In this document: in pieces, positions 10,951 to 24,299 of the stretch
Layout: each line of letters opens with the position of its first letter
Numbering within the stretch: the first letter of the stretch is position 1
DNA from: an uncultured Gammaproteobacteria bacterium
GTDB taxonomy: Bacteria; Patescibacteriota; Patescibacteriia; UBA2591; UBA6264
Direction of reading: 5' to 3'
DNA: 48,812 bases
Assembly (NCBI GenBank): GCA_964528795.1
Contig: CAZGUY010000002.1
Span: 1-48,812, forward strand
Notes under the pieces: generated by a model
The model's database searches: none
Seen by the model: only the letters and a program-made list of their open reading frames with translations
What the model was told of the DNA's origin: nothing
Made by a program: the position numbers and the translations under genes

Positions 10951-10965
10951 TATGCCCTAATATAC

Positions 10966-11351: not shown

Positions 11352-11487
11352 ATAAATTTAATTTTTAATATTGATTAATTGTTAAGTGTGTTTTATCCAA
11401 CATTTTGTATTTATTAAACAATCCTACAACTGGATAAACTTATTCTCAATAGAGCACTTAAATCACCCTAATATATCTTAGTTGTGT

Positions 11488-11516
11488 TTGACAAAGCCTG
11501 ATTTTGATATTATACT
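11488..11516 (+). promoter_or_regulatory. Promoter TTGACA-N17-TATACT
   Basis: -35 at 11488-11493 and -10 at 11511-11516, 49 nt before ATG 11565. Confidence 0.6.
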
Positions 11517-11564
11517 CTTAAAGTAAGTTCATTTTAATTGAACTTTTAAAAAGGAGGTAAAACA

Positions 11565-11834: not shown

Positions 11835-11852
11835 AAACTTAGATTAATTAAT

Positions 11853-11885
11853 GAGTCGAGTATAAAATTCTCGACTCTTTTTTTA
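11853..11885 (+). terminator. Intrinsic terminator
   Basis: GAGTCGAG-N9-CTCGACTC followed by an 8-T run. Confidence 0.75.
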
Positions 11886-11898
11886 TATAAATTTAGTT

Positions 11899-12672
11899 TT
11901 ATTTACTTTTTAATTTTCTAATAATAAAACCTGGAATCTTCCAAGGCTTTTTTATTCCTTTTCTTATTAAGTTTTTAAATCTTTTCTTTTTTATTTCTTT
12001 TTTAGGTAGTATAAATTGAATTGCTTTTTCTTTTTGTTTTTGGGTTGGGTTTAAATTTAGAAAATCCATTATTTTTTCAATCTGATCTCTTTTTTTATTG
12101 TTAAGTTTTTTAAAATCAATATCTAACCTTTTTAAATTAGGGTTTTGTTTAAAAAAGCTTTTAATTGAACTTTTATATTGATTTATTATTTTTTTAATTT
12201 CTTTATCTGACATTTCTTTATCTCCTCTGTCAGCTATTCTTCTTTGAATTGAATCAATTACATCTTTGTCTTTTCTATGACAGATTAAAAAGTAAGGGTT
12301 TTTAAGATAGGGGAGAAATAGATCAATTGTAAGAGTTGTTCTTGGATCTTTAAATCCCCAAAGGGTAGATTCTTTTTTATTTATTAAATTTTTAATTTGT
12401 TTTTGAAATTTATTTTTTTGTTTTATTATATTTTCTTTTTTAGGAGGATTTTTCCAATCTCCGTTTGCTTTTTTTAGTATTTTTTTATTTAGTTTTTGAA
12501 AATCCCAATCTTCATAATGACCTAATGGGTTTGATATGTCATCTCTTTTTGATTCTTGATCTATAGATCGTCCCATATCAACTCCTAAACGAGCTAATGC
12601 TCCAGCTACTATAGAAGTGCCGGTTTTATGCATTCCTAAGATTACAATTGTTTTGATATCCTTATTTTTCAT
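11899..12672 (-). CDS. Sulfotransferase family protein
   Basis: 257 aa. The N-terminal P-loop-like PAPS 5'-phosphosulfate-binding motif is ILGMHKTGTS. The gene overlaps the upstream flippase gene by 11 nt, indicating an operon. Confidence 0.65.
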   Translation of the reverse strand: MKNKDIKTIVILGMHKTGTSIVAGALARLGVDMGRSIDQESKRDDISNPLGHYEDWDFQKLNKKILKKANGDWKNPPKKENIIKQKNKFQKQIKNLINKKESTLWGFKDPRTTLTIDLFLPYLKNPYFLICHRKDKDVIDSIQRRIADRGDKEMSDKEIKKIINQYKSSIKSFFKQNPNLKRLDIDFKKLNNKKRDQIEKIMDFLNLNPTQKQKEKAIQFILPKKEIKKKRFKNLIRKGIKKPWKIPGFIIRKLKSK

Positions 12673-14173
12673 TGTTTTTCATATTTTTTAATTTATTTTT
12701 TACATCTTTTAAAATTAGTTTGTCATCTTTATTAAATGATTTAGTAAAGTAGAGTAGGGTAAGATAAACGATTCCTAAGATAAAGATATAAATTATTAAA
12801 TCATAAAGTCCTGGGGCTCCAAAAAAGTATTTTAAAAGATAAGCTACAAGAGCTGTAATTAAAGCAGCTAAAATATAGGTTAGATTGTTTTTTGTATAAG
12901 GTTGAATTTTATAAAAATAATATATTTCTATTAAACCAACTATACCACCAATTGTTATAGCAGATGAGGTAGCTATAGCTGCCCCTACAGGACCAAATTT
13001 TGGAATAAGTAGTATATCTAAACCTAAGTTAATTAAAAGCATTATAAGAGCATTTAAAAGGTTTAACTTTGTTTTAGCAAAAGCTTCTAAAGTCATTCCT
13101 TCTGGACCAAAAGCAGAATTTAAAAATTTACCTATTGCTAATATAGATAAGGCTAAAGGAAAAGCAAGATATTCTTTTGTAAAAAGAATAGTAATGATAC
13201 TTGTCCCAAAAAACAAAAGAATTATTAAATTAAAAGCATTCATATTTATAATCCATCTTGTAACCCAAGAATAAATAGCTTTAACTTGTTTAATTTGTTT
13301 TTTAGAAATAAGTTCTGAAATAACTGGTTTGTAAATTTTAGCAAAAGAGGTTAAAACTATACCTAAAATTACTATTAAGGAGACATAAATCTTATAAACT
13401 CCAACTTCAGCTGATGATCTATAAATTCCTAATATTATAAAATCAATTTGGCTAAGAAATATTAAAATAGTAGTACTAAGGGTTAAAGGCCATGAAAATT
13501 TTAATATTTTTTTAAAAGAAACACTTTCTGGTTTAATTTTTGATAATGGAGAAAGTATTTTCTTTTTAACAAACCAAAGACTAGCCATAGCTGTTATAAA
13601 AATAGCTAAAACATAAAGCTTACTCCAAGCTAAAAGCCCCCAACTTAAAACTAAAAGATAAATAGTGAATAAGATTTTTAAACCTGGCCTTATAATCTCT
13701 CTAAAATAAATTCTATACCGCAATTCTTTAAAACCAATAAAAGAACTTGAACTTAGTCTAATGATAGCCCAAAAGGGGAGAGCAAAACTTAAAACTTTTA
13801 AAACAGAAACTAAATCAGGATTATTAAAAACTTTAACAGCTAAAAAATTAGATAATAAAAAAAGTATTATTGAAACAATAATACTTGAAATAATACCAAA
13901 CTTATAAATGGATTTTATTAAAGTTTTAGTTTTTCCTTTTTCACCTTTGCCATTAAAGTAGGGAATAAAGCGTTCTAGGGCCTTATGAGTACCTAAAAGA
14001 ACAAAAATTAAACAAAAAGTAACAATGGTATAGCCAAGAGTAAAAGTACCAAAGTCTTTTGGTATTAAAATTCTTGTTATAAGGATTAACCATACATAGG
14101 ATAAAATTTTTCCTAATACTTCGCCAGAAAAATTTATACCTGATTCTTTAACTATCTTTTTAAGATTATTCAT
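12662..14173 (-). CDS. Polysaccharide biosynthesis protein, Wzx/MOP-type flippase
   Basis: 503 aa, about 14 predicted hydrophobic helices, with the typical MOP-family organisation. It sits inside a glycosyltransferase operon. Confidence 0.75.
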   Translation of the reverse strand: MNNLKKIVKESGINFSGEVLGKILSYVWLILITRILIPKDFGTFTLGYTIVTFCLIFVLLGTHKALERFIPYFNGKGEKGKTKTLIKSIYKFGIISSIIVSIILFLLSNFLAVKVFNNPDLVSVLKVLSFALPFWAIIRLSSSSFIGFKELRYRIYFREIIRPGLKILFTIYLLVLSWGLLAWSKLYVLAIFITAMASLWFVKKKILSPLSKIKPESVSFKKILKFSWPLTLSTTILIFLSQIDFIILGIYRSSAEVGVYKIYVSLIVILGIVLTSFAKIYKPVISELISKKQIKQVKAIYSWVTRWIINMNAFNLIILLFFGTSIITILFTKEYLAFPLALSILAIGKFLNSAFGPEGMTLEAFAKTKLNLLNALIMLLINLGLDILLIPKFGPVGAAIATSSAITIGGIVGLIEIYYFYKIQPYTKNNLTYILAALITALVAYLLKYFFGAPGLYDLIIYIFILGIVYLTLLYFTKSFNKDDKLILKDVKNKLKNMKNNEK

Positions 14174-14261
14174 TTATGTAGAGAAGTTTAGCTTATTTCT
14201 TACATTATATCTTACTATGTCAGGTTAAAATGTCAATAAACAAAAACCCACAAGGTTTAGC

Positions 14262-15374
14262 TTACAGGTTTAATTTTTTTATAGTTTTTAAATATTTGTT
14301 AACTATTTTTTTAGAATCAAAATCCTTTGCTCTTTTTTTGATTGCTTCTTCTTTTATGCTTGGTTTATTTAATGTTTTTATAATTGCCTGAGCTAGTTTC
14401 TTATAATTTTTAACAGGTACTAATTCTCCATATTTACCTGCCTTTAATGCTTCATATGGGCCACTTGGGCAATTAGTACTAACTATTTGTGTGCCACAAG
14501 CCATTGCTTCTATTAAAACCATTGGAAACCCTTCCCAATTTGACGGAAGGGCAAATAAATCGGATTGAGACATGTATTTGTAAGGGTTTTTTACAGCCCC
14601 AATTAAGTTGACTTTATTTTGAAGGTTTAATTCTTTTATTAATTGTTTTAAATTTTTTCTTTCCTCACCTTTGCCTAATATAATTAATTTTGTTTCTGGT
14701 ATATTATTGTTAACTCTTTTAAAAGCTTTAATTAAATTAGAAAAGTTTTTACGTTTTATTAATCTTCCGCATCCTAATATAATTTTATTGTTTTTATTAT
14801 TAAAAAAGGGATGCTTAATTTTTTCTTTAGATTTTTCTTGTATTTTTTTAAAGTCTATTGGGTTGTAAATAACTTTAATTTTATCTTTTTTTATATTAAA
14901 ATTTGTAATCAAGTCTTTTTTAATTGCTTTTGAAACTGCAATAATTTTTTTAGCCCTATTATAGAATAGTTTAATCATTATTTTTTGAATTATTCCGTAA
15001 AGGTTGTTTGGTATGTCAATAGATTGAAAGTTATGAATCGTAAGAATGGCGTCTTGATTGATTAAAGCATTAAAAATATTAGAATTTCTTACAAAGCTAA
15101 TAATAACCTTTTCTTTTTCTTTGTTTAATGTTTTTTTTATTTTATATATTCTTTTAAAAAAGTAATATATTTTAAGAAAAAAATTATTTGTTTTTGGTGT
15201 GTTTAAAATAACTTTTTCTCCATTGTACGGATAATATATATCAGGTTCAAATAATATTATCGTTTGTTTAATATTTTTTGGTAGATTTAAGGATAAGGTA
15301 GATAAGACTCTTTCTGCTCCCCCCATTTGTAAACTACTTGATAAAAAATATATTTTTTTGGCATGTTTTGTCAT
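14262..15374 (-). CDS. Glycosyltransferase family 4 (GT-B)
   Basis: 370 aa with the EGFPMVLIEAMACG (E-x7-E) motif. Confidence 0.85.
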   Translation of the reverse strand: MTKHAKKIYFLSSSLQMGGAERVLSTLSLNLPKNIKQTIILFEPDIYYPYNGEKVILNTPKTNNFFLKIYYFFKRIYKIKKTLNKEKEKVIISFVRNSNIFNALINQDAILTIHNFQSIDIPNNLYGIIQKIMIKLFYNRAKKIIAVSKAIKKDLITNFNIKKDKIKVIYNPIDFKKIQEKSKEKIKHPFFNNKNNKIILGCGRLIKRKNFSNLIKAFKRVNNNIPETKLIILGKGEERKNLKQLIKELNLQNKVNLIGAVKNPYKYMSQSDLFALPSNWEGFPMVLIEAMACGTQIVSTNCPSGPYEALKAGKYGELVPVKNYKKLAQAIIKTLNKPSIKEEAIKKRAKDFDSKKIVNKYLKTIKKLNL

Positions 15375-15432
15375 GTTAAAGTGTTTAGTGATTTATATTC
15401 TTTTAAAATATTTTCAGTAAAAAGCGATTCTT

Positions 15433-16677
15433 TTATTTTCTTAATTTTTCATTGTTAATCAGTTTTTTATATAATGCTAAATAATTATTTTCAAATTGTT
15501 TAACTGAATAATTGTTTAAAGCTCTTTCTCTACAATTTTTAGAGAATTTATTTTTTAGTTGATCATTGTTTAAAACTTTACTAATTGCTTGGGCTAACTT
15601 TTTAGTATTTTTCTTTTCTACTAATATACCACAATCTTTTGTAACCTGTTCTGGTATACCGCCAGTTTTAAAGCCAACTATAGGAGCACCGCTTGAAAGG
15701 GCTTCGTTTACAGTAGTGGGGAGGTTATCAAAAAGAGAAGTAATACAAAAGAGATCAGTCGTATTGTATATTTTGGCGATTTTAGAACGATTGGATATAT
15801 AACCTATTTGTTTAATGTTAATATTATTGTCGATTTTATTTAAATCTATTTTTTTTCCTACCGTAACAACCATCCAGTTTTTAGCCTGTATCTTATTTAA
15901 AGATTCAAAGAAATATTTTGCCCCCTTTATTTTATTTTCTAAGTCAGCTGCTACAAATAATATAATTTTTTTATTTTTAGGTAAATTAAATTCTTTTCTA
16001 ATTTTTTCTTTATTTCTTGGTTTAAAAAGGTTTGTATCAATTCCATTTGGAATTACTTGTATATTACAATTTTTTAAAAAAGATGTTTTTATTTTTTTAG
16101 ACAACCACAAAGAGGGGGTAACAATTGTAGGGTTCCAATTTTTAGTAAAAATTTGTTTTTTCTTTTGCCACATATAAGAGGATAAGTCAAAATATGTCTT
16201 TGGTAAACGACCCCTTTTAGGGCAGTCCCCGCAACCATTTTGCCATTTTTTACATTCAAATGGGTAAATACAATTTCCAGTGATAGGCCAAGCGTCATGA
16301 AAAGTCCAAACTACAGGTATATTTATTTTTTTAAGGAAGCTTATAAAACTAAGATTAATATAATAGCCATGGAGGTTGTGAAGGTGAATTAGATCAAAGT
16401 TATTTTTTTTAATATATCTTTCTAGTTTTTTAGTTGAAAAATAGCTGCCATATCCTTGTAAACCAAAAACTCTAGATATTAAAAAATGAAAAATTACTTC
16501 AGTTTTAAAAGAAAATTTAAATGATTTTTTACTTTTATTTTTGCCTTTTCTTCCATAAGCAAAGAAACTGGAAACATTTGGTTCTTTATTGAGTGTTTTA
16601 TGTAATAGTCGAGTAATTTCTTCTGTTCCTCCTCCTCCTTTATAGGCATTGTTTATAGTAAGTATTTTAATTTTCAT
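15433..16677 (-). CDS. Glycosyltransferase, GT4-like
   Basis: 414 aa. N-terminal GGGGTEE, and a C-terminal FDNLPTTVNEALSSGAPIVGFKTGGIPE donor-binding region. Confidence 0.8.
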   Translation of the reverse strand: MKIKILTINNAYKGGGGTEEITRLLHKTLNKEPNVSSFFAYGRKGKNKSKKSFKFSFKTEVIFHFLISRVFGLQGYGSYFSTKKLERYIKKNNFDLIHLHNLHGYYINLSFISFLKKINIPVVWTFHDAWPITGNCIYPFECKKWQNGCGDCPKRGRLPKTYFDLSSYMWQKKKQIFTKNWNPTIVTPSLWLSKKIKTSFLKNCNIQVIPNGIDTNLFKPRNKEKIRKEFNLPKNKKIILFVAADLENKIKGAKYFFESLNKIQAKNWMVVTVGKKIDLNKIDNNINIKQIGYISNRSKIAKIYNTTDLFCITSLFDNLPTTVNEALSSGAPIVGFKTGGIPEQVTKDCGILVEKKNTKKLAQAISKVLNNDQLKNKFSKNCRERALNNYSVKQFENNYLALYKKLINNEKLRK

Positions 16678-16716
16678 TAATAAATTGTTTAATCTATGCT
16701 ATTTATCTTTATTTTT

Positions 16717-17640
16717 TTATTTTAACCAATGGCTCAGATCTTTATTAATTAATTCTTCTAATTTTTTAATATCTTTTTTATAATAATTTTTTAAATATTT
16801 TTTATCTTCTTCATTAATTTTCCCCTTTTTGAGATTATTATTAGAGAGTTTTAATGAGATTTTTTTAAGTTGGTTAGGGAAGAGATGTAATGTCTTTACT
16901 ATCTTTTTTATGGTTTTTTTAAATATATTTGGTTTATTTAATAAGTTATGAATTATCTTTGAGCGATGTTTTCCTGAGGCATTGTGTTTTGTTATAAGTT
17001 TTGGAATAAAACTTGGATCAATGTCCAAGAACTTATAAGCGTCTTTTATTAACTTTTTAGGATTTTCTTTTAGTTCCTTAAAAAGGTAAATTTTAACCTG
17101 GTCAAAATTTTCAAGATAAGATTTTACTTGTTTGTAGTAAAGTCCTACATCTTTGTAATACCAAATAAAATCTCTTGGTTGTTTTATTCTTTGTCCTTCA
17201 GCTTTTAAAGCCTCTTTAAAGTTTGATTTTTTTTCTCGGTCGCATCCTTTTAAAAACCAATATGCAGAATATGCTCTCTCTGTTGGGTTTCGTAATATGA
17301 TAATGATTTTAGGGTTTCCTAAATATTTTTTAATTTTTTTAGGGGCTTGTTTGTGATAATATAAGGTATCAGTACTTGCTTCTCCGATAACAGTCTCATC
17401 TGTAACTTTATTATATAATTTTTTATAGTTGTTAAAATTTTTAATAATGTTTGATTCTGACTTTTGATCACCCTTTCCAATGAAAGGAAATTTTAAAAAG
17501 GTAGAAGTAATAAATTTTGGTTCTTTGTGTTCGGGCAAAAAAACTTCCGGATGCTCTCTAAGATAATGATACAAAGAAGTAGTACCACTTCGAGCGGCTC
17601 CAATTATCAAAAAATTTGGCAAATTATTTTGATTATTCAT
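16717..17640 (-). CDS. Sulfotransferase (PAPS-dependent, Sulfotransfer_1/3-like)
   Basis: 307 aa. 5'-PSB motif IIGAARSGTTSL and 3'-PB motif ILRNPTERAYS. Confidence 0.85.
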   Translation of the reverse strand: MNNQNNLPNFLIIGAARSGTTSLYHYLREHPEVFLPEHKEPKFITSTFLKFPFIGKGDQKSESNIIKNFNNYKKLYNKVTDETVIGEASTDTLYYHKQAPKKIKKYLGNPKIIIILRNPTERAYSAYWFLKGCDREKKSNFKEALKAEGQRIKQPRDFIWYYKDVGLYYKQVKSYLENFDQVKIYLFKELKENPKKLIKDAYKFLDIDPSFIPKLITKHNASGKHRSKIIHNLLNKPNIFKKTIKKIVKTLHLFPNQLKKISLKLSNNNLKKGKINEEDKKYLKNYYKKDIKKLEELINKDLSHWLK

Positions 17641-17741
17641 GTATATAGCTATTAAGTATAATTAATTATATCGTTTATATTGAAGTATTTGTATTCTTTC
17701 AGCTTTCCTTTAAGCTAGGTGTTTTAAATTCTTTAGCTTTT

Positions 17742-18629
17742 TTATACTTTTTTAAATACAAAATTTTCAAAAACATCTATCTGATTAAAATTAATTTCAT
17801 TAATTTTAATTAATTCACCTTTTTTGTTTATCTTATAAGGTCTATAATATAAATCTTTTAACAGTTTAGAGGCTTTTTTGTATATATTATTATTTTTCAT
17901 TTCTATAGCTATAATAGGGGAGTGTCTTTTTAATGTCTTTTTCCCGCCTAATAAAACTCTATATTCTCCTCCTTCGATATCTATTTTTATAAAGTCTGGC
18001 TTAACTTTGTTTTTTTTACAATAACTATCAAGCTTACTACATTTTACTTTGTTTTCTTTAACCCCTCCCTTTACTTGGTTTTTTATTAAACTACTTCCAC
18101 CACTGTGTAATTCCTTGAAATTGTTATAAAAGTGATTTGTTCCGTTCTTATCTGATAAAGCTAATTTATTAAGATTAGCTTTAGTTGATTGAAAGGTTAA
18201 TTTAAGAGCTTTATAAACATCAGGGTTTGGTTCAAAAAGGTGAATATTTTTTTCTTTAAGGACTTGTTTAGCTAATAGGGAGTAAAAGCCGTAGTTTGCT
18301 CCTATGTCGAAAAATATATCTTTTTTTGTTAGGTTTTTACAAAGAAAAAAAACTAATGAAAATTCCTTTTTACCTAGGTTCCCCAGGAGATAAAGGGGGA
18401 GGAAATCAAGGTCCCAAAAATAGCCCCATATCTCTTCATTAAAAAATAAATCAGTTTTAATAATTTGCTTTTTATTATATAAACCGATTTTTCCAATTAA
18501 AGGTCGTAGTATCTTGATATAAAAATAATGTTTTGGTCTTTTTAATAATCGTTTCAATTTAGATTCAGTAAAAAAGAAACCTTTTTCTTTTGCTTCCTTT
18601 TTAATTTGGTTAATAATATCTTGGTTCAT
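17742..18629 (-). CDS. FkbM-family SAM-dependent methyltransferase
   Basis: 295 aa with the motifs FFDIGANYGFYS and FIKIDIEGGEYRVL. Confidence 0.8.
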   Translation of the reverse strand: MNQDIINQIKKEAKEKGFFFTESKLKRLLKRPKHYFYIKILRPLIGKIGLYNKKQIIKTDLFFNEEIWGYFWDLDFLPLYLLGNLGKKEFSLVFFLCKNLTKKDIFFDIGANYGFYSLLAKQVLKEKNIHLFEPNPDVYKALKLTFQSTKANLNKLALSDKNGTNHFYNNFKELHSGGSSLIKNQVKGGVKENKVKCSKLDSYCKKNKVKPDFIKIDIEGGEYRVLLGGKKTLKRHSPIIAIEMKNNNIYKKASKLLKDLYYRPYKINKKGELIKINEINFNQIDVFENFVFKKV

Positions 18630-18766: not shown

Positions 18767-19090
18767 ATGGATTATTTTAATATTATAATTTTAATCATTT
18801 TTACCTTTATTGGATATTTTGTTCAAAGCTTATATTCGGGCAAATATCCAGGTGATAAAATAGAAAAGTCATTAAGATTTTTAATTAATGACTATTATAT
18901 TCATATTCATCATTGGTTATGGTCTTTGGTTTTAATTATTCTATTTATTATTCTTGGTTTTTATAATCCTGTAGTTTTTGGAATTTTAATAGGCTTTACA
19001 ATTCAAGGTTTAACCTACAAAGATCGGTTTGTATTTTTTTATCATAAAGATAATTGTTCTGATATTTATAATAAATGGAAATCAGATTAA
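18767..19090 (+). CDS. Small integral membrane protein, hypothetical
   Basis: 107 aa with three hydrophobic helices. No recognisable motif. Confidence 0.55.
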   Translation: MDYFNIIILIIFTFIGYFVQSLYSGKYPGDKIEKSLRFLINDYYIHIHHWLWSLVLIILFIILGFYNPVVFGILIGFTIQGLTYKDRFVFFYHKDNCSDIYNKWKSD

Positions 19091-19095
19091 AACAA

Positions 19096-19122
19096 AAACC
19101 CGCAAGTTTAACTTACGGGTTT
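19096..19122 (-). terminator. Repeated terminator hairpin, copy a (AAACCCGCAAGT-TTA-ACTTACGGGTTT)
   Basis: 12-bp stem. The single mismatch is a G-U pair on the minus-strand transcript, which is followed by UUUUUGUUUU. Identical copies lie at 21171 and 23550. Confidence 0.75.
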
Positions 19123-19128
19123 AATTTT

Positions 19129-19602
19129 TTATGGTTTTTTAAGGCGAGAGGGCAGGTAAAGAGTGTAGGTTTTTTGGGTTGTATCCGAACCCGACTTTAT
19201 ATCGCTTGGGTAAAATAATTTCCAGGTTGAACTTATTTTTTTTACCTTTTTAATGTGGTAATGTATAACAACTTCTGGAGTTTTTCCGTATTTTGTTTCT
19301 GTTGAGTATTTATCCAAAAGGACCCTAGCTGTATCTTTGCCATCTTTATACTGAATAAAGGTCTGAATCTTGTCTCTATATTCGATTTCCATCTTATTGA
19401 TCAGTTTCTTGGGTTTAGAATGATCTATGTAGTGATCAGTGTTTTCCATGATAGCTATATCTTTTATAAATTCAAGAGCAAAGACAGACACCATTAATCC
19501 TACAACAATACAAATTACTAGATCACCTTTAGTTGGTATACTTTTTTGTATAGCATACATTAATAAAAATGATATAACCACACAACCAATTACAGTAACC
19601 AT
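19129..19602 (-). CDS. Small membrane-anchored hypothetical protein (157 aa), paralogue of 23594..24082
   Basis: AGGAGG RBS. The first 10 codons (MVTVIGCVVI) are identical at nucleotide level to 23594..24082. Two N-terminal TM helices and the shared block IAI(M/A)ENT(D/S)HY..HSKPKKLI. Confidence 0.7.
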   Translation of the reverse strand: MVTVIGCVVISFLLMYAIQKSIPTKGDLVICIVVGLMVSVFALEFIKDIAIMENTDHYIDHSKPKKLINKMEIEYRDKIQTFIQYKDGKDTARVLLDKYSTETKYGKTPEVVIHYHIKKVKKISSTWKLFYPSDIKSGSDTTQKTYTLYLPSRLKKP

Positions 19603-19662
19603 AATTTTCCTCCTTTTATAAATTAATTGTAAATATCTAAATTTATTTATTTAACTATCCTT

Positions 19663-19691
19663 AATATAGCAAAAATTAATGATTTTGTCAA
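19663..19691 (-). promoter_or_regulatory. Repeated promoter, copy a (TTGACA-N17-TATATT on minus strand)
   Basis: Reverse complement of 19686-19691 is TTGACA and of 19663-19668 is TATATT. It is part of a conserved promoter+leader module of about 85 nt also found at 21341-21425 and 24083-24167. Confidence 0.65.
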
Positions 19692-19706
19692 GATTTTAGA
19701 ACAGTA

Positions 19707-19839
19707 CTTGTTTACAAGTTTTTAGAAATTTTTTAAGTTAAACTTGTAAACTATCTTTTAAGGGTTAAATTCTTTATATTAAAGGTAAAATTAGCTTGTT
19801 TACAAGTTTTTTAAAATATGTTAAATTAAACTTGTAAAC
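19707..19839 (+). promoter_or_regulatory. Two 45-bp direct repeats (19707-19751, 19795-19839), each with 9-bp inverted arms GTTTACAAG...CTTGTAAAC; candidate operators/promoters
   Basis: Read directly. Each repeat contains TTTACA-N17-TAA(G/A)TT. The second ends 13 nt before ATG 19853. Confidence 0.5.
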
Positions 19840-19852
19840 AAAAATAGAATTT

Positions 19853-20881
19853 ATGGATATTAAAGAAAAGATTTTAAATTTATTAAAAAAACAGGGTGAC
19901 CTTCAAGTAGCGGACATTGTAGAAGCTACGGGCTTTTCCCGTGTTTATCTTAGTCGTGTTTTGAAAAAAATGCGGGAAAAAGATAAAGTTCGTTTAATAG
20001 GGCATACAAACAGGGCAACCTATGTTATACCTAATACTAAAGCTGAAAAAGAAGTTAAAAAGAGTATTTTAGATACCCAAAAAGAGTTAAACTTAAAAGG
20101 TTTAGAAGAGGATAAGGTCTTGGATGATATTAAAAAAGAAACAGGGATCTTTCTAGATCTTAAAGAGAATATAAAAAAAATCGTAGAATATTCTTTTTCT
20201 GAAATCCTAAATAATGCTATTGAACACTCTGGGTCTAAGAAAGGGAAGGTTAAACTTAAAAAAGGAGAGAAAAAATTAATTTTTCAAGTTAATGATTTTG
20301 GGGTTGGTATTTTTAACCATATTAAAGAAAAAAGAAATCTAGATAATGTATTAGATGCTATTGGTTGTTTAATAAAAGGGAAACAAACCACTGATCCCGA
20401 GTCACATAGCGGGGAGGGTATATTCTTTGTATCACGTTTAATGGATAAATTGATTATTAAAAGTTTTAATAAAAAACTTGTTTTTGATAATAATAAGGAA
20501 GATATTTTTATTTCTGATATTAACAATAAAAAAGGAACTGAAGTAATAGGAAAAATTGATTTACATTCATCTAAAAAAATATCAAAAGTATTTGATGATT
20601 ATACTGATGAAAATTATTCTTTTGATAAAACAGAAATAGTTGTAAATATTTTTAATAAAAAAGGACCACATATGTCTCGTTCAGAAGCAAGAAGAATTTT
20701 GTCAGGATTAGAAAAATTTCAAAGAATAGAATTTGACTTTAAAAATGTCTCAAGTATTGGTCAGGCTTTTGCTGATGAAATATTTAGGGTTTGGGCTAAT
20801 AAGCATCCTGATATTGAATTGGATTACAAAAATGTAAATGAAAATGTTAAATTTATGATCCAGCATGCTTTAAATAAGTAA
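19853..20881 (+). CDS. wHTH + GHKL (HATPase_c-like) + C-terminal STAS-like (DUF4325-type) protein
   Basis: 342 aa. N-terminal HTH VADIVEATGFSRVYLSRVLKKM, N-box-like EILNNAIEH, G-boxes NDFGVGI and GEGIFF, and a C-terminal SRSEARRILSGL...IEFDFKNVSSIGQAFADEIF typical of STAS-like DUF4325. Confidence 0.7.
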   Translation: MDIKEKILNLLKKQGDLQVADIVEATGFSRVYLSRVLKKMREKDKVRLIGHTNRATYVIPNTKAEKEVKKSILDTQKELNLKGLEEDKVLDDIKKETGIFLDLKENIKKIVEYSFSEILNNAIEHSGSKKGKVKLKKGEKKLIFQVNDFGVGIFNHIKEKRNLDNVLDAIGCLIKGKQTTDPESHSGEGIFFVSRLMDKLIIKSFNKKLVFDNNKEDIFISDINNKKGTEVIGKIDLHSSKKISKVFDDYTDENYSFDKTEIVVNIFNKKGPHMSRSEARRILSGLEKFQRIEFDFKNVSSIGQAFADEIFRVWANKHPDIELDYKNVNENVKFMIQHALNK

Positions 20882-21004
20882 TATTTATTGACCTTTTTTG
20901 AATTTTTGTTATTTTAAAAATAATAATTAATATAATTCTAAATTTTATGCGTTTTAGATTTTTGATTCCAAGAACAGCCAATTGTTCTGATGGCTGTTGA
21001 ATAT

Positions 21005-21035
21005 GCCGGGGACCCTTAGTTCCCGGCTTTTATTT
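21005..21035 (+). terminator. Intrinsic terminator, probably for 19853..20881
   Basis: GCCGGGGAC-N5-GTTCCCGGC followed by TTTTATTT. It is preceded by a second hairpin AACAGCCA-N10-TGGCTGTT (20973-20998). Confidence 0.65.
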
Positions 21036-21088
21036 AATCTTGGTTAAATGTCTGAAGTAATTTTATTTTTTAAACAAAAACCTAAGGA

Positions 21089-21125
21089 GGAGATCAAATC
21101 TCCCCTTTACCAGGTGTCACCTGGT
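21089..21125. repeat. GC-rich hairpin element, copy 7 (C-like + B-like)
   Basis: GGAGAT-CAA-ATCTCC (21089-21103) and ACCAGGTG-T-CACCTGGT (21109-21125). Confidence 0.6.
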
Positions 21126-21170
21126 AAATATCCAACAAAGAGCTTAATATGGCTTGTTAATCAAAAACAA

Positions 21171-21197
21171 AAACCCGCAAGTTTAACTTACGGGTTT
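21171..21197 (-). terminator. Repeated terminator hairpin, copy b
   Basis: Identical to 19096-19122. Located 3' of the 33-codon ORF. Confidence 0.75.
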
Positions 21198-21238
21198 AAT
21201 TTTTAAGGAAAAAAGCTGTAGCATCATTCATGGGATTA

Positions 21239-21340
21239 TCACAAGCATCCTAGCATTCCTAGGATTGTCCAACCCCCCATAAAGGCTACAAAACCAAAAA
21301 GAACAGCTATTGCTATTTTGTAAAGAGTGTTCGTGTCCAT
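21239..21340 (-). CDS. 33-aa hydrophobic peptide (MDTNTLYKIAIAVLFGFVAFMGGWTILGMLGCL)
   Basis: Not in the ORF track because it is too short. It sits exactly where the repeated promoter+leader+AGGAGG module places a start codon (ATG at 21340-21338) and is followed by the repeated terminator. It has a single TM-like segment. Confidence 0.6.
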   Translation of the reverse strand: MDTNTLYKIAIAVLFGFVAFMGGWTILGMLGCL

Positions 21341-21392
21341 AATTTCCTCCTTTTATAAATTAAGGTTTAATTGTAAATATCTAACTATCCTT

Positions 21393-21421
21393 AATATAGC
21401 AAAAATTAACGTTTTTGTCAA
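21393..21421 (-). promoter_or_regulatory. Repeated promoter, copy b (TTGACA-N17-TATATT)
   Basis: Reverse complement of 21416-21421 is TTGACA and of 21393-21398 is TATATT. Confidence 0.65.
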
Positions 21422-21432
21422 TATTAAAAACA

Positions 21433-21465
21433 AAACCCGTAAGTTTAACTTATACTTACGAATTT
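21433..21465 (-). repeat. Decayed copy of the repeated terminator hairpin
   Basis: AAACCCGTAAGT..ACTTACGAATTT. The left arm is intact and the right arm is mutated. It lies immediately upstream of promoter copy b. Confidence 0.5.
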
Positions 21466-21470
21466 TAAAT

Positions 21471-21535
21471 ATATTGTAATGGCATTGCAATATATTTCCC
21501 AAAACATTGTAATCACATTACAATATTATTATAAT
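21471..21535 (+). promoter_or_regulatory. Two palindromes (ATATTGTAAT-GGC-ATTGCAATAT; ATTGTAAT-CAC-ATTACAAT) overlapping a TTGTAA-N17-TATAAT promoter
   Basis: Read directly. The perfect 8-3-8 palindrome at 21506-21524 spans the -35 (21507-21512). The -10 TATAAT is at 21530-21535. Confidence 0.5.
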
Positions 21536-21541
21536 ACTAAT

Positions 21542-21727
21542 TAAAAAGAAACTTACTCGTATGTGGATAGCTTGTCAGGATTGGCTAGGATTGGTCAGAG
21601 AGGTGTTGTTAACCCTAAAGGTACACATACACAAGAAACTTGTTCCTATGGACGAGGTCCAACCTCGTCTTTGGTAGATAAAAACTGTATAAAAAATTAC
21701 CTCGGGCAAAATGCCCGAGTTCTTTTT
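21542..21727 (+). ncRNA. Candidate small RNA or leaderless micro-ORF transcript (about 185 nt), unknown family
   Basis: Bounded by the promoter above and by terminator CTCGGGCA-AAA-TGCCCGAG+TTCTTTTT (21701-21727). Internal stems are GTATGTG(21559)/CACATAC(21624) and GACGAGGT-CCA-ACCTCGTC (21651-21669). GC content is locally elevated and there is no SD for the 38-codon ORF inside. Confidence 0.35.
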
Positions 21728-21942
21728 ATATAACTTATAATAAATAATTAGGTTTAATTTATAATAAATGTTTGTTGATTTAAAGTAAAATAAATTTGTT
21801 TTTTTACTTTAATAAAAGGTTAATTTCTTTATTTTTGTATATTCTAATTTTAAAAAGTGGGAAAATATTTTGACAATATTGCTTTATTTTTATATAATTT
21901 ATAATAAATAATTAGGTTTAATTTATAATAAATGTTTGTTAA
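21728..21942 (+). repeat. 52-bp direct repeat x2 (21728-21779 and 21891-21942) flanking a promoter
   Basis: TATAA(C/T)TTATAATAAATAATTAGGTTTAATTTATAATAAATGTTTGTT occurs twice. The second copy forms the leader of Fic gene 21949. Confidence 0.85.
21870..21898 (+). promoter_or_regulatory. Promoter TTGACA-N17-TATAAT for Fic gene
   Basis: Perfect consensus hexamers at 21870-21875 and 21893-21898. Confidence 0.6.
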
Positions 21943-21948
21943 TTTTAT

Positions 21949-23475
21949 ATGGCTAAAAAATCCAAAATAGAACAAAAATCAATTAACTGGTGGGCTGAGA
22001 TGTTAAGAAGGGGGAGGGTAGTATTTCTTAGCTCCGAGTTTCCAAATAATTATCAAAAACGTTTTTTAAAAAAGCAAGGGCTTGCTTTTCCAATAAAAAG
22101 GGGTTTGTGGTTATTAAAAAAAGAGCAAGAAAAACCAAAAGAACAATTTCTAATATATTATTGGGAAATAATCTCTAAAGTACTTTCTCGTTATAACGAT
22201 TGGTCAATTAGGGGTAAGACCGCCATTAATCTTTTATTAGGTAAACAAAATATTCCCAAAGAGATAAAGGTAAGGATCTCTGATAAAGTAATTCATACCA
22301 TAGAATTAAAGTTTGGTTTTAAAATTTTTGTGAATCATGATTCCCGTTTTAATTCTGATTTGGTGCAAAAAGTAGAGTTATCTGGTTCTGATATTTTCGT
22401 TGATATACCCGAAAGATTGCTTTTAGAATATAAAAACAAAGATCAAAGTTTTGTCCGTTTAATTAAAAGCCAATCTTTTGATAAAAGAATAATAGATACC
22501 CTTTATCAAGAAAAGCCAACCCCTAAATCATTTAAAAGAGTTATTCAAACCCTTAATCAGCATAAAAGATTTGATTTTGTAAAGGATTTTAAAGAAATTG
22601 TAAAGCGCTATACCCATTATCATGTTCCAAAAATAAAATCTGTTAAAACCAATAATGATATATATAATAAGAATATTTCTCCTGATAAACCCTGGGTTAT
22701 TAGACAAAAAGAGCAGGTTAAAGGTTTTTCTAATGATATTGAGGAAAAATTTAAATTAAAAATTAAAGATATTCCTAAGTATAATTTAGATCATCTCTTA
22801 AATCAGGCCAGAGATTCTAAACAATATGATATTTATCATTCTACCACTATTGAAGGATATCAGATTACACCAGAAGAAGTTTCTGAGGTTTTATTAAAAT
22901 ACAAAGATAAAAAAGAAATGAAAGGAGGAATTAAAAAAAGAAAAGAATTAAAAAATAAAATGGCTATATTGGGGTATGCCAATGCTTTTGATCTTATTTT
23001 GGAAAAAGTTAAAAAAGATTATCCAAACCCTCAAGTTTCTAATGAGTTAATTAAAGACATATTTTATCAGCTTTTTAAACCAACAGCAGATGCAGGAATT
23101 TTAGATAAAATGTCTTTAACTCGTTGGCGTAAGACGCAGAATTTTATTAGAAGTAGTCGCCACATTCCACCCTCTCCAAATAAAGTCCCTGATTTAATGG
23201 AGGATTTTGAAAGATCAGTCCAAAAAATTTCTAACCCAATTATTAAATCTATAATTAGCCATTGGTTATTTACTTCAATTCATCCATATATGGATGGTAA
23301 TGGTAGAACAGCAAGGTTGTTAATGAATTATATTTTTCTTTCCAGTGGTTACTCTTGGCTTACTATTAAAGCCGAGCAAAGAGAAAAATATTTTAACAGT
23401 TTAGAAAAAGCTAATATAGAAAACGATATTTTACCATTTTCTGATTTTATAGTTAGTTTACTTTTAAATTTATAA
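21949..23475 (+). CDS. Fic-domain protein with long N-terminal extension
   Basis: 508 aa. Active site HPYMDGNGRTAR, and an upstream STTIEG that fits the [ST]xxxE[GN] inhibitory motif. Confidence 0.8.
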   Translation: MAKKSKIEQKSINWWAEMLRRGRVVFLSSEFPNNYQKRFLKKQGLAFPIKRGLWLLKKEQEKPKEQFLIYYWEIISKVLSRYNDWSIRGKTAINLLLGKQNIPKEIKVRISDKVIHTIELKFGFKIFVNHDSRFNSDLVQKVELSGSDIFVDIPERLLLEYKNKDQSFVRLIKSQSFDKRIIDTLYQEKPTPKSFKRVIQTLNQHKRFDFVKDFKEIVKRYTHYHVPKIKSVKTNNDIYNKNISPDKPWVIRQKEQVKGFSNDIEEKFKLKIKDIPKYNLDHLLNQARDSKQYDIYHSTTIEGYQITPEEVSEVLLKYKDKKEMKGGIKKRKELKNKMAILGYANAFDLILEKVKKDYPNPQVSNELIKDIFYQLFKPTADAGILDKMSLTRWRKTQNFIRSSRHIPPSPNKVPDLMEDFERSVQKISNPIIKSIISHWLFTSIHPYMDGNGRTARLLMNYIFLSSGYSWLTIKAEQREKYFNSLEKANIENDILPFSDFIVSLLLNL

Positions 23476-23505
23476 TATGTCAGAAGGAAGAGAGTCTATA
23501 TTTTA

Positions 23506-23539
23506 CTTAGGAGCAAGGCTCCTAAGTAAGGCTCCTAAG
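23506..23539. repeat. GC-richer hairpin CTTAGGAGC-AAG-GCTCCTAAG with duplicated right arm
   Basis: 9-bp perfect stem with a 3-nt loop. The unit TAAGGCTCCTAAG is repeated, giving alternative pairings. Confidence 0.6.
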
Positions 23540-23549
23540 TTGAAAACAA

Positions 23550-23576
23550 AAACCCGCAAGTTTAACTTACGGGTTT
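23550..23576 (-). terminator. Repeated terminator hairpin, copy c
   Basis: Identical to 19096-19122. Located 3' of gene 23594..24082 and also usable by the plus-strand Fic gene. Confidence 0.75.
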
Positions 23577-23593
23577 AATTTTTTATGGTTTTA

Positions 23594-24082
23594 TTATTTT
23601 GGCAGTTTGAGGATATAGCTTGTTTCAAGAGTGTCTTTACTATAATTATTGCGTTCAGAAGGAATAATTATCCAAGGGTACCATTTGTCATCAGGTTGTT
23701 TTGTAGTTCTTACATAATATTTTTCAACTAAGACGGGAGTGGTAACTTTTTTAGATCTTTTAGTTTCTACATTTTGATTTTCTATAATTTTGGTGTTTAA
23801 ATTACCTTCATCTTCGTAACAGAAAAGGTAAAATTTCTCTTCTTTATATTCAAGATCAATTTTCTTTTGACTGTTCAAAGAAATCAGTTTTTTTGGTTTA
23901 GAGTGGGTAGTATAATGACTAGTGTTTTCGGCTATAGCTATCTGTCTTATAATACCAGACAAAAAAAGGCCCAGCATTAATGCTAATATCAGTGCGACTA
24001 TAAAAGGTCTCATTTGAAACTCGTCGCACACTGCAAATGTTACAAAAAGTACTATAACCACACAACCAATTACAGTAACCAT
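23594..24082 (-). CDS. Small membrane-anchored hypothetical protein (162 aa), paralogue of 19129..19602
   Basis: AGGAGG RBS, identical first 10 codons, two TM helices, then a diverged soluble domain. Confidence 0.7.
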   Translation of the reverse strand: MVTVIGCVVIVLFVTFAVCDEFQMRPFIVALILALMLGLFLSGIIRQIAIAENTSHYTTHSKPKKLISLNSQKKIDLEYKEEKFYLFCYEDEGNLNTKIIENQNVETKRSKKVTTPVLVEKYYVRTTKQPDDKWYPWIIIPSERNNYSKDTLETSYILKLPK

Positions 24083-24134
24083 AATTTCCTCCTTTTATAA
24101 ATTAAAGTTTAATTGTAAATATCTAACTATCCTT

Positions 24135-24163
24135 AATATAGCAAAAATTAATGATTTTGTCAA
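24135..24163 (-). promoter_or_regulatory. Repeated promoter, copy c (TTGACA-N17-TATATT)
   Basis: Reverse complement of 24158-24163 is TTGACA and of 24135-24140 is TATATT. Confidence 0.65.
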
Positions 24164-24299
24164 GGTCAAAATTTATAAACTTATTTTTGCTTTGAAATAA
24201 ATTTTAAATTTTATTGTATTAAATAATGTAAGTACAGATTGGTATTTTATTAATATTTATCCTGAAATATGATCAGGGTAATTTGATTATATAAAAATT

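What the first reader, a model, noticed from the sequence alone, without database searches (positions are those of the whole stretch)
19096..24167. Triplicated promoter-leader-RBS ... terminator expression cassette carrying different small membrane-protein cargos
Seen: three minus-strand units are present, at 19096-19691, 21171-21421 and 23550-24163. They share an ~85-nt promoter+leader (TTGACAAAA(T/C)(C/G)(A/T)TTAATTTTTGCTATATTAAGGATAGTTA...TTTATAAAAGGAGGAAA(A)TTATG). They also share an identical 27-nt terminator hairpin (AAACCCGCAAGT-TTA-ACTTACGGGTTT, better paired on the minus strand). The cargos are a 157-aa protein, a 33-aa hydrophobic peptide and a 162-aa protein. The two larger ones share their first 30 nt exactly (MVTVIGCVVI) and a short block IAIxENTxHY..HSKPKKLI, and otherwise diverge. 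Decayed terminator copies lie at 21433-21465 and 14244-14271. Inference: this is a portable expression cassette, with conserved ends and a variable middle, that diversifies small membrane-anchored proteins. The units are interleaved with a regulator, a candidate sRNA and a Fic gene. The function is unknown, and surface variation, exclusion/immunity or toxin-like roles are speculation. I know of no described system with this layout.
Basis: partly seen in the sequence, partly recalled or inferred. Interest (0 to 1): 0.7.

Follow-up and report, generated by a model that had tools for sequence, protein, structure and literature searches.

The report
Three small genes sharing identical promoter and terminator
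Three stand-alone small membrane-protein genes in an uncultivated AT-rich bacterium carry near-identical promoter-leader and terminator modules around very diverged coding regions, most likely because the regulatory ends of an old, fast-evolving gene pair are kept alike by recombination; a tidy example of a known kind of genome behaviour, not a new system.

Summary
Three minus-strand units carry the same sigma-70 extended -10 promoter, leader and Shine-Dalgarno site, and an identical 27-nt terminator. Two weaker terminator copies lie at 21433-21465 and 14244-14271.

- The 157-aa and 162-aa cargos are full-length paralogs (34% identity, E 8e-27) of an orphan family with two membrane helices. 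Only four clusters exist among 1.84 billion representatives.
- The terminator is bidirectional and sits between convergent genes.
- Comparable layouts are described: T4-phage PeSL cassettes and Mycoplasma vsp genes.

Synonymous sites in the coding interiors are near saturation (dS about 1.2), yet the flanks and first ten codons are identical. The flanks have therefore been homogenised.

A related genome (L003) has the two paralogs in tandem, between a glycosyltransferase and the flippase of the same surface-glycan cluster, with non-identical flanks. At that junction the window holds an extra glycosyltransferase gene followed by a lone terminator copy. Neighbouring proteins are 46-83% identical between the genomes, the cargos at most 28%.

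Best reading: autonomous one-gene units for fast-evolving membrane proteins, with regulatory ends under concerted evolution and perhaps serving as recombination handles. No recombinase, no strain-level cargo swapping and no wider genome count were found. Protein function is unknown.

The parts
19603..19691 (-). Unit 1 promoter (-35 at 19686-19691, extended -10) plus leader and Shine-Dalgarno site. Relative to unit 3 it carries a 14-nt insertion, a 7-nt deletion and one extra A.
19129..19602 (-). Unit 1 CDS, 157 aa: two N-terminal membrane helices and a beta-rich C-terminal domain. It is the B-type paralog. Its last codons (KKP, then stop) read into the conserved 3' module.
19084..19134 (-). 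Unit 1 3' module: A-tract, 27-nt hairpin (19096-19122) and T-tract. It is a bidirectional terminator shared with the convergent 107-aa ORF.
21341..21421 (-). Unit 2 promoter and leader, with 3 substitutions relative to unit 3.
21239..21340 (-). Unit 2 CDS: a 33-aa hydrophobic peptide with no homolog on record.
21171..21197 (-). Unit 2 terminator hairpin, identical to those of units 1 and 3.
21433..21465 (-). Orphan terminator copy 6 nt upstream of the unit 2 -35. It still folds (-12.4 kcal/mol, z -4.2). This is a terminator-then-promoter junction like the T_A/P_B junction in L003.
24083..24163 (-). Unit 3 promoter and leader.
23594..24082 (-). Unit 3 CDS, 162 aa, the A-type paralog.
23538..23588 (-). 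Unit 3 3' module (hairpin 23550-23576). It is a bidirectional terminator, convergent with the Fic gene.
14244..14271 (-). Lone terminator copy just upstream of the flippase promoter. The last codons and stop of the 370-aa glycosyltransferase lie inside it. In L003 the two family genes lie upstream of this promoter, directly after the ortholog of the 414-aa glycosyltransferase.
11899..18629 (-). Surface-glycan gene cluster: FkbM methyltransferase, two sulfotransferases, two GT4 glycosyltransferases and a Wzx-type flippase. It is syntenic with L003 and is the genomic home of the family.
19853..20881 (+). Interleaved gene: winged-HTH + HATPase_c_2 + DUF4325 (STAS-like) protein. No tested link to the units.
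19692..19852 (.). Two copies of a roughly 45-nt inverted repeat (CTTGTTTACAAG cores) between the regulator gene and the unit 1 promoter. Probably the regulator's own operators. They are absent upstream of units 2 and 3.
21542..21730 (+). Candidate structured small RNA (MFE -57 kcal/mol, z -4.5) with its own promoter at 21507-21535 and terminator at 21701-21719. Palindromes ATTGTAAT-N3-ATTACAAT at 21506-21524 and 21473-21491 overlap its promoter. No Rfam match.
21949..23475 (+). Interleaved Fic-domain protein (508 aa). Its C-terminal half resembles the SoFic / PDC-S04 defence models.
18767..19090 (+). 107-aa membrane-protein ORF convergent with unit 1. It uses the same terminator from the other side.

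Best explanation
The three units are autonomous one-gene transcription units. Each has a near-consensus sigma-70 promoter with a TG extended -10, an unstructured AU-rich leader of about 55-70 nt, an AAAGGAGG ribosome-binding site, and a bidirectional intrinsic terminator.

Units 3 and 1 encode the A-type and B-type members of an old pair of paralogs. The pair belongs to an orphan family of about 160 aa, with two N-terminal membrane helices and a beta-rich C-terminal domain. The family travels with a surface-glycan biosynthesis cluster. Unit 2 encodes a 33-aa hydrophobic peptide under the same control elements.

The near-identity of the flanks is not left over from a recent duplication. It comes from homologous recombination or gene conversion between the regulatory modules of the copies within this genome (concerted evolution). 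The conversion stops where the coding regions become too different.

The same modules probably also serve as breakpoints for local rearrangement, as PeSL modules do in T4-type phages. That would explain why the pair sits elsewhere in the sister genome, why a lone terminator copy remains just upstream of the flippase promoter, and why a terminator copy sits directly in front of the unit 2 promoter.

The proteins evolve much faster than their neighbours. That fits an envelope role under arms-race or niche selection, such as phage exclusion or surface interaction. This last point is inference; the biochemical function is unknown.
For: Shown:
- The promoter, leader and terminator repeats are far beyond chance.
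- The cargos are paralogs.
- For codons 11 to the end, dS is 1.24 and dN is 0.71. The first 10 codons have 0 differences.
- The 5' and 3' modules are identical apart from indels, with alignment scores of 103-153 and 82-92 against null maxima of 35 and 33.
- In L003 the two paralogs lie in tandem between the GT and the flippase, each with its own, non-identical promoter and terminator. Identity of the flanks is therefore not required by function.
- Nucleotide homology between the two genomes resumes right after the lone terminator, at window 14240.
- In the C-terminal domain the pairing U3-A plus U1-B scores 190, against 176 for U3-U1 plus A-B. In the linker block U1 and U3 are 74% identical. 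This mosaic pattern is what partial gene conversion between old paralogs would give.
- The L003 unit A leader and the A-tract of its 3' module resemble the window's modules (score 60 against a null maximum of about 35). Each unit is therefore inherited as a whole.
- Neighbouring proteins are 46-83% identical between the genomes, while the cargos are at most 28%.
- An independent assembly of SRR12088346 breaks exactly inside the promoter and terminator repeats.
- The leader has no predicted structure.

Inferred:
- The recombination mechanism.
- The role of the modules as rearrangement handles.
- The envelope or arms-race role of the proteins.
Against: - No recombination intermediate or polymorphism was observed. 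Only one strain of this lineage is available.
- The conserved blocks start exactly at the -35 and end exactly at the T-tract. This points to selection on function at least as much as to conversion tracts.
- The sister lineage shows essentially no cargo variation across its four fetched contigs, so any shuffling is slow.
- The A/B orthology rests on short proteins at about 25% identity, and the quartet margin is small (190 against 176).
- The membrane topology is ambiguous, so surface exposure of the C-terminal domain is not established.
- The structure models are poor, with pLDDT 53-54.
Confidence: 0.6

Rival explanations
1. Selection alone explains the identity. The three genes must respond identically to one sequence-specific factor that reads the promoter spacer, the leader and the first codons, and purifying selection keeps the flanks identical without any recombination.
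For: - The conserved blocks coincide exactly with the functional elements, from the -35 to the start region and from the A-tract to the T-tract.
- The leader motif TAGATATTTAMAA, 9-10 nt after the -10, recurs in L003 unit A and in L004.
- Another paralog pair in the window (85 and 89 aa, 39% identical) also keeps similar flanks, with compensatory changes in its terminator stem.
Against: - There are zero substitutions across roughly 115 + 50 nt, including spacer positions and about 8 synonymous sites, while dS elsewhere is 1.24.
- Unit 1 tolerates a 14-nt insertion and a 7-nt deletion in the leader, so the leader is not under base-by-base constraint.
- The L003 A and B flanks differ from each other.
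- No complementary RNA partner was found.
Confidence: 0.15
2. This is a dedicated portable cassette system. The promoter and terminator ends act as handles of a specialised mechanism that captures and spreads unrelated small-protein cargos around the genome.
For: - Unit 2 carries a cargo with no detectable relation to the other two.
- In L004 a similar promoter-leader drives an unrelated 159-aa protein with one membrane helix.
- The units sit at different places in the two genomes.
- The Fic and small-RNA segment is bracketed by two terminator copies in direct orientation, at 21433 and 23550.
Against: - No recombinase, integrase or attachment-site-like repeat is present in 48.8 kb.
- There are only three promoter copies, and two of the three cargos are old paralogs.
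- The pattern is absent from 185,579 species-representative genomes and from IMG/VR. The single metagenome match is an unrelated palindrome.
- The L004 promoter resembles the generic strong promoter of the 275-aa gene even more closely (score 62).
- The sister lineage shows no cargo variation.
Confidence: 0.12
3. The units arose by recent duplication, followed by extremely fast divergence of the coding region only (positive selection or targeted mutation). The flanks are identical simply because they are young.
For: U1 and U3 are each other's best match overall (86 bits). The interior dN/dS is fairly high (0.57).
Against: - Synonymous sites are near saturation (dS 1.24; third-position identity 43% against 30% expected by chance). 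Selection on the protein cannot produce that.
- Similarity in the C-terminal domain pairs U3 with A and U1 with B.
- No diversity-generating retroelement or similar mutator is present nearby (Pfam scans).
Confidence: 0.06
4. Unit 2 is a type I toxin-like gene, and the units are membrane-toxin modules of a defence island that also holds the Fic gene, the regulator and the small RNA.
For: - The product is a 33-aa hydrophobic peptide behind a strong promoter.
- Neighbours include a SoFic-like Fic protein and a structured small RNA.
- AbiE and Schlafen-type genes lie elsewhere in the window.
- There is a weak match of the family to a phage protein family of unknown function (phrog_8077: E 3.7e-7 for P0003 and 0.18 for P0001).
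Against: - No antisense or complementary RNA to the leader or start region was found.
- The units give no PADLOC hit.
- In L003 the family sits inside the glycan cluster without a Fic gene or the regulator.
- The C-terminal domains show purifying selection, with dN/dS about 0.35.
Confidence: 0.05
5. The layout is an assembly artefact. Repeats misjoined a metagenome-assembled contig, so the interleaved order is not real.
For: A second assembly of the same sample breaks at every repeat.
Against: The repeats themselves, and each unique junction to its cargo, are sequence facts. The modules are 50-115 nt, short enough for single reads to span. Units 1 and 3 keep the A-then-B order seen in L003.
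Confidence: 0.02

Closest known systems
PeSL (promoter-early stem-loop) regulatory cassettes of T4-type phages (Arbiol et al. 2010, PMC2839356; Comeau et al. 2014, PMC4122927)
   Same: - Repeated composite modules made of a strong sigma-70 consensus promoter and a terminator hairpin flank small genes of unknown function.
- Sequence conservation over about 100 bp is proposed to make them preferred sites of homologous exchange.
- Related genomes differ by presence or absence of a flanked gene, with a single module left behind.
- Each gene brings its own promoter and terminator.
   Different: - PeSLs occur about 50 times per phage genome, in hyperplastic regions. Here there are 3 promoters and 5 terminators in a cellular chromosome.
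- In PeSLs the stem-loop and promoter form one intergenic unit. Here that junction is seen only at unit 2 (and in L003), and the modules otherwise sit at opposite ends of a gene.
- Mini-circles were shown for the phages. Nothing of the kind could be tested here.
- Two of the three cargos here are paralogs, not unrelated orphan genes.
Mycoplasma variable surface lipoprotein gene families (vsp of M. bovis, vpma of M. agalactiae; PMC3365025)
   Same: Clustered paralogs each have a highly conserved non-coding stretch of about 70 bp upstream and a conserved N-terminal coding segment. The rest of the protein is divergent.
   Different: - vsp products are lipoproteins with a 31-aa signal peptide and internal tandem repeats.
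- Switching depends on an adjacent site-specific recombinase.
- None of these features is present here. In addition, the 3' end is also conserved here, and all copies carry a full promoter.
Borrelia hermsii vmp upstream and downstream homology sequences (PMC6011951)
   Same: Short conserved sequences around the start codon and downstream of the gene bracket highly divergent coding regions and serve as crossover points for gene conversion.
   Different: That system has one expression site and about 60 promoterless silent copies on plasmids. Here every copy is a complete expressed unit and there is no archive.
Prophage 'morons' and integron gene cassettes (from general knowledge, not tested against a reference here)
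   Same: Morons are small autonomous promoter-gene-terminator units added between other genes. Integron cassettes are small mobile units with varied cargo.
   Different: There is no prophage context: SecA, SecDF, glycolysis genes and a glycan cluster surround the region. Integron cassettes lack promoters and need attC sites and an IntI integrase, and none is present here.

Membership tests
PeSL regulatory cassettes (T4-type phages) | Composite intergenic motif: a strong sigma-70-like promoter combined with a stable terminator stem-loop | tested here: inconclusive
   Both elements are present and repeated. They form a contiguous terminator-then-promoter junction only at 21433-21421 (unit 2) and at T_A/P_B in L003. 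Elsewhere they sit at opposite ends of a gene.
PeSL regulatory cassettes (T4-type phages) | Many copies, concentrated in the hyperplastic regions of a phage genome | tested here: not met
   There are 3 promoter and 5 terminator copies within 10 kb of a cellular chromosome that carries SecA, SecDF, glycolysis genes and a glycan cluster. The leader pattern has no match in IMG/VR.
PeSL regulatory cassettes (T4-type phages) | Insertions and deletions between related genomes are bounded by the motifs, leaving a single motif at the empty site | tested here: inconclusive
   There is one case. L003 has two units between the GT and the flippase promoter. The window has a terminator copy at that junction, and homology resumes right after it. 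However, the window also has an extra GT gene there, so the event is not a clean excision.
PeSL regulatory cassettes (T4-type phages) | Formation of circular excision products (mini-circles) | not testable with these tools
   This needs the raw reads of SRR12088346, or PCR across the predicted circular junction.
Mycoplasma vsp/vpma-type variable surface gene family | Highly conserved 5' untranslated region plus a conserved N-terminal coding segment among clustered paralogs | tested here: met
   About 85 nt upstream and the first 30 coding nt are identical between units 1 and 3.
Mycoplasma vsp/vpma-type variable surface gene family | Lipoprotein signal peptide, and tandem repeats in the variable part | tested here: not met
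   The N-terminus runs straight into a membrane helix. VIGC at residues 4-7 lacks the charged and hydrophobic segments of a lipoprotein signal peptide (read from the sequence). No tandem repeats were found in the coding regions.
Mycoplasma vsp/vpma-type variable surface gene family | Adjacent site-specific recombinase that drives inversions or switching | tested here: not met
   No recombinase domain was found in the non-nested ORFs of 90 aa or more that were scanned. All units have the same orientation.
Integron gene cassettes | Promoterless cassettes bounded by attC sites next to an intI integrase | tested here: not met
   Each unit has its own promoter. There is no integrase and no attC-like imperfect inverted repeat beyond the terminator.
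Borrelia-type expression-site gene conversion (UHS/DHS) | A single promoter-bearing expression site plus an archive of silent promoterless copies | tested here: not met
   All three copies carry the full promoter.
Type I toxin-antitoxin (for unit 2) | A small hydrophobic toxin peptide plus an antisense or overlapping small RNA that pairs with its mRNA | tested here: inconclusive
   The peptide is present (33 aa, one hydrophobic helix). No complementary stretch beyond AT-rich chance matches was found, and duplex energies with the neighbouring candidate RNAs gave no consistent signal. Toxicity cannot be tested with these tools.

The most novel reading that the evidence does not exclude
Promoter and terminator modules act as recombination handles in a cellular chromosome, a bacterial counterpart of phage PeSL shuffling. 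They would move autonomous one-gene units for fast-evolving membrane proteins around a surface-glycan locus. They would also pick up new cargo, such as the 33-aa peptide and the Fic/small-RNA segment that is bracketed by terminator copies. A related promoter-leader would be reused for unrelated small membrane proteins in neighbouring lineages (L004).
Probability: 0.2. Interest if true: 0.65.

Novelty: new variant of a known kind. Interest (0 to 1): 0.4.

Why it matters
If the reading is right, this is a clean cellular example of regulatory modules evolving in concert while the proteins they drive diverge past recognition. It also hints that promoter/terminator repeats can guide local gene shuffling outside phages.

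It defines a new orphan family of small membrane proteins tied to a surface-glycan cluster in a poorly sampled AT-rich lineage. The family evolves several times faster than its neighbours, which makes it a candidate for envelope-level conflict with phages or partner cells.

In practical terms, these repeats break short-read assemblies and can mislead synteny-based annotation of such genomes.

Tried and rejected
- **Collection scans with the terminator pattern.** There was no match in the species-representative genomes. The one metagenome match (L001) is an unrelated perfect palindrome beside a glycoside-hydrolase-like gene.
- **Scans with the three-part promoter-leader pattern.** There was one genome match (L004) and none in IMG/VR. 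The L004 cargo is unrelated to the family by profile comparison. Its promoter is as close to the window's generic 275-aa gene promoter as to the three units, so it is only weak evidence for cargo swapping.
- **Homolog searches.** Only four clusters were found worldwide. There were no Pfam, NCBIfam or PADLOC hits and no significant PDB sequence hit (best E 1.6). A weak match to phrog_8077 was not backed by tblastn against GenBank phages or by IMG/VR searches.
- **Structure.** Two AlphaFold runs gave pLDDT 53-54. A Foldseek search of the PDB gave nothing below E 0.6. No fold assignment was made.
- **A trans-acting RNA that pairs with the shared leader and first codons.** Duplex energies gave no consistent signal, and only AT-rich k-mer matches were found. 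Rejected for lack of support.
- **Rfam.** There was nothing at the gathering threshold. Only terminator-like sub-threshold hits appeared in the region.
- **Lipoprotein reading of MVTVIGC.** Rejected because there is no signal-peptide body.
- **Regulator operators as the shared element.** The CTTGTTTACAAG repeats occur only upstream of the regulator gene and unit 1.
- **Strain comparison.** The only other contigs of this lineage come from the same sample and break at the repeats. The sister-lineage contigs are about 99% identical to each other.
- **Source metadata.** None was found in the literature. The taxonomy of the organism could not be established. One related contig (L004) carries a 'Gammaproteobacteria' label, which I suspect is a binning artefact given its 29% GC.

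Full report
**1. What is in the sequence**

The window is 28% GC. It carries ordinary chromosomal genes: SecA, SecDF, Fpg, PGK, enolase, two iPGM copies, an ECF sigma factor and a MacAB-type exporter. It also carries many conflict-type genes: two Fic genes, AbiE, Schlafen/AlbA_2 and DUF4143 ATPases. It is therefore a cellular genome, not a phage.

The three minus-strand units are exactly as described.
- The 40-nt promoter string occurs at 19652-19691, 21382-21421 and 24124-24163 with 0, 2 and 0 mismatches. None was expected by chance.
- Each copy is TTGACA-17-TATATT with a TG extended -10.
- The 27-nt hairpin is identical at 19096-19122, 21171-21197 and 23550-23576.
- ORFs of 157, 33 and 162 aa lie between promoter and terminator.
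- Weaker terminator copies lie at 14244-14271 and 21433-21465.

**2. Anatomy of the shared modules**

An alignment of the three units shows that similarity begins at the -35 hexamer. Between units 1 and 3 it runs through the leader, the AAAGGAGG site and the first 30 coding nt. Unit 1 differs only by a 14-nt insertion, a 7-nt deletion and one extra A. Similarity then collapses and resumes about 15 nt before the hairpin. It ends at the last T of the T-tract.

The 3' module is an A-tract, a hairpin and a T-tract. It folds on both strands, at -17.4 and -11.6 kcal/mol. In every unit it lies between convergent genes: the 107-aa ORF and unit 1, the regulator side and unit 2, and Fic and unit 3. It is therefore a bidirectional terminator.

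The leader has no predicted structure.

Within the window the promoter-leader is specific to these units. Three other stand-alone strong promoters share the generic TTGACAAA...AAGGAGG layout. They belong to the 85-aa, 89-aa and 275-aa genes. They score only 22-31 against the three units, inside the null range, whereas the units score 103-153 against each other. The terminator is less exclusive, because a clear relative closes the 370-aa glycosyltransferase gene.

**3. The cargos**

The 157-aa and 162-aa proteins align over their whole length at 34% identity, E 8e-27. Both have two N-terminal hydrophobic helices and a beta-rich C-terminal part in low-confidence models (pLDDT 53-54).

The family is nearly unique. 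A profile search of 1.84 billion representatives found only these two proteins plus P0003 (163 aa) and P0004 (168 aa). Word-indexed searches of 5.8 billion clusters agreed. There is no Pfam, NCBIfam, PADLOC or PDB match. The only outside hint is a weak collinear match to the phage family phrog_8077, of unknown function. Direct searches of phage collections did not confirm it.

The 33-aa product of unit 2 is one hydrophobic helix with no relatives on record.

**4. Why the flanks are identical**

A codon alignment of units 1 and 3 gives dS 1.24 and dN 0.71 for codons 11 to the end, and no difference at all in the first ten codons. Synonymous sites are thus close to saturation, while about 115 nt at the 5' end and about 50 nt at the 3' end differ only by indels. 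A recent duplication cannot give that pattern, and selection on protein sequence cannot saturate synonymous sites. The flanks must have been homogenised, or be held by extraordinary constraint.

Constraint alone is unlikely for two reasons. Unit 1 tolerates sizeable indels in the leader. In the sister genome, the two family genes have clearly different promoters and terminators.

**5. Comparison with a related genome**

P0003-like and P0004-like genes lie in tandem on L003 (GCA_964634345.1, an 8.8-kb contig). They sit between a GT4 glycosyltransferase and a Wzx-type flippase, in a cluster syntenic with window 11899-18629. Between the two genomes the flippase is 83% identical, the GT 72%, the sulfotransferase 71% and the methyltransferase 46%. 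The family proteins are at most 28% identical. The small proteins therefore evolve several times faster than their neighbours.

Nucleotide homology between the genomes runs from the flippase promoter onward and starts at window 14240, immediately after the lone terminator copy. In L003 the two units follow directly after the ortholog of the 414-aa GT. In the window that interval is instead filled by an extra 370-aa GT gene, whose last codons and stop lie inside the terminator copy. The pair itself lies 5-10 kb away in the window, upstream of the cluster. It keeps the A-then-B order but is separated by about 4 kb that holds Fic, a candidate small RNA, unit 2 and the regulator.

A segment-wise comparison gives the following.
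- In the C-terminal domain, the pairing U3-A plus U1-B scores 190. The pairing U3-U1 plus A-B scores 176.
- In the linker block, U1 and U3 are 74% identical to each other, against about 25% to A or B.

That mosaic is what old paralogs with partial gene conversion would show, although the data are thin.

The unit A leader in L003 (...AAATAAATCTAGATATTTAAAACTTAATTTAAAGGAGG) and the start of its 3' module (TAAAAAATTAAAC...) resemble the window's modules well above background (score 60 against a maximum of about 35). Promoter, gene and terminator have therefore been inherited as one unit.

**6. Evidence bearing on portability**

For portability:
- The units sit at different sites in the two genomes.
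- A lone terminator copy lies just upstream of the flippase promoter.
- A terminator lies 6 nt upstream of the unit 2 promoter, the same kind of junction as T_A/P_B in L003.
- The Fic and small-RNA segment lies between two directly oriented terminator copies.
- In another genome (L004), a promoter-leader with the same TAGATATTTAAAA motif drives an unrelated 159-aa protein with one membrane helix, beside an epimerase gene and a Fic gene.

Against portability:
- No recombinase is present anywhere in the window.
- There are only three promoter copies.
- Two of the three cargos are old paralogs.
- The L004 promoter is as similar to the generic promoter of the window's 275-aa gene as to the three units.
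- The four fetched contigs of the sister lineage (L002, L003, L007, L008) carry virtually identical units.
- The only other contigs of this lineage come from the same sample and merely break at the repeats.

**7. Interpretation**

The best-supported account is an old pair of fast-evolving membrane-protein genes plus one mini-gene. Each is an autonomous strong-promoter, strong-RBS, bidirectional-terminator unit. Their regulatory ends undergo concerted evolution within this genome. The use of those ends as breakpoints for rearrangement is plausible but unproven.

This works like the PeSL cassettes of T4-type phages (PMC2839356, PMC4122927). It resembles the conserved 5' regions of Mycoplasma vsp/vpma genes (PMC3365025) and the homology sequences that flank Borrelia vmp genes (PMC6011951). 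It fails the defining features of each of those families: phage context and copy number, lipoprotein signal and recombinase, and a silent archive, respectively.

Protein function remains unknown. Linkage to a glycan cluster, membrane anchoring, rapid divergence and the weak phage-family match make an envelope or phage-interaction role the most likely guess. I give it only about 30% confidence.

**8. Verdict**

In novelty terms this is a new variant of a known kind, carrying a new orphan protein family. Interest is moderate.

Noticed in passing
window 1-95, 2929-3036, 4540-4631, 6215-6310, 10846-10960 (+ strand) and 21087-21140 (- strand): A repeated, GC-richer non-coding module with consensus ...TGTGAAnnCTTAAGGTTAACAG...CCTAACAGGTyGCACCTGCGAGG...GGGAGATCGAATCTCCCTATGG. 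It forms two hairpins, with some compensatory changes across copies, and ends in a hairpin that looks like a tRNA T-arm. ARAGORN finds no tRNA and Rfam finds nothing. The copies lie beside Schlafen/AlbA_2-HATPase_c_4, DUF4143 ATPase and Fic genes. One degenerate copy lies just downstream of the unit 2 terminator. Its nature is unknown.
   Followed up: partly
window 21473-21730 (+): A candidate structured RNA of about 190 nt (MFE -57 kcal/mol, z -4.5) with its own promoter and terminator. Two palindromes, ATTGTAAT-N3-ATTACAAT, overlap or precede the promoter and look like operator sites. The RNA lies upstream of the Fic gene. It has no Rfam match and no copy elsewhere in the window or in the related loci.
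   Followed up: partly
window 21720-21781 and 21884-21945: A 62-nt direct repeat, 95% identical, spaced 164 nt apart. It lies between the small-RNA terminator and the Fic start codon. The second copy carries the -10 of a perfect consensus promoter at 21870-21898.
   Followed up: no
window 10966-11357 and 11488-11894 (+): Two paralogous small soluble-protein genes (85 and 89 aa, 39% identical, no Pfam match). Each has its own TTGACAAA promoter and hairpin terminator. Their flanks are still similar (scores 61 and 37), and the terminator stems differ by compensatory changes. This is a second, less homogenised example of the same gene-unit style in this genome.
   Followed up: partly
window 41268-42233 (-): A 275-aa protein with two N-terminal membrane helices and roughly a dozen repeats of a G-x-x-x-YQ-like motif, with no Pfam match. 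It is expressed from another stand-alone consensus promoter, strong RBS and terminator unit. Its promoter-leader is the closest match to the one in L004.
   Followed up: partly
window 19692-19852: Two copies of a roughly 45-nt inverted repeat with CTTGTTTACAAG cores, upstream of the winged-HTH/HATPase_c_2/DUF4325 gene. They are likely autoregulatory operators. The domain combination, an anti-sigma-kinase-like ATPase fused to a STAS-like domain and a DNA-binding domain, is unusual and uncharacterised.
   Followed up: partly
window 5971-6252 vs L003 8474-8755: A 283-nt stretch, largely non-coding in the window, is 83% identical between the two genomes although the gene neighbourhoods differ. It overlaps the repeated structured module.
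   Followed up: no
window 14262-15374 (-): The extra 370-aa glycosyltransferase is absent from L003. It passes the Pfam threshold for 'GT4-conflict', a family of glycosyltransferases found in conflict systems (29.9 bits against a cut-off of 26), in addition to the general GT4/GT1 families.
   Followed up: no
window 36546-38135 and 38139-39713 (+): Two tandem, diverged copies of cofactor-independent phosphoglycerate mutase follow PGK and enolase.
   Followed up: no
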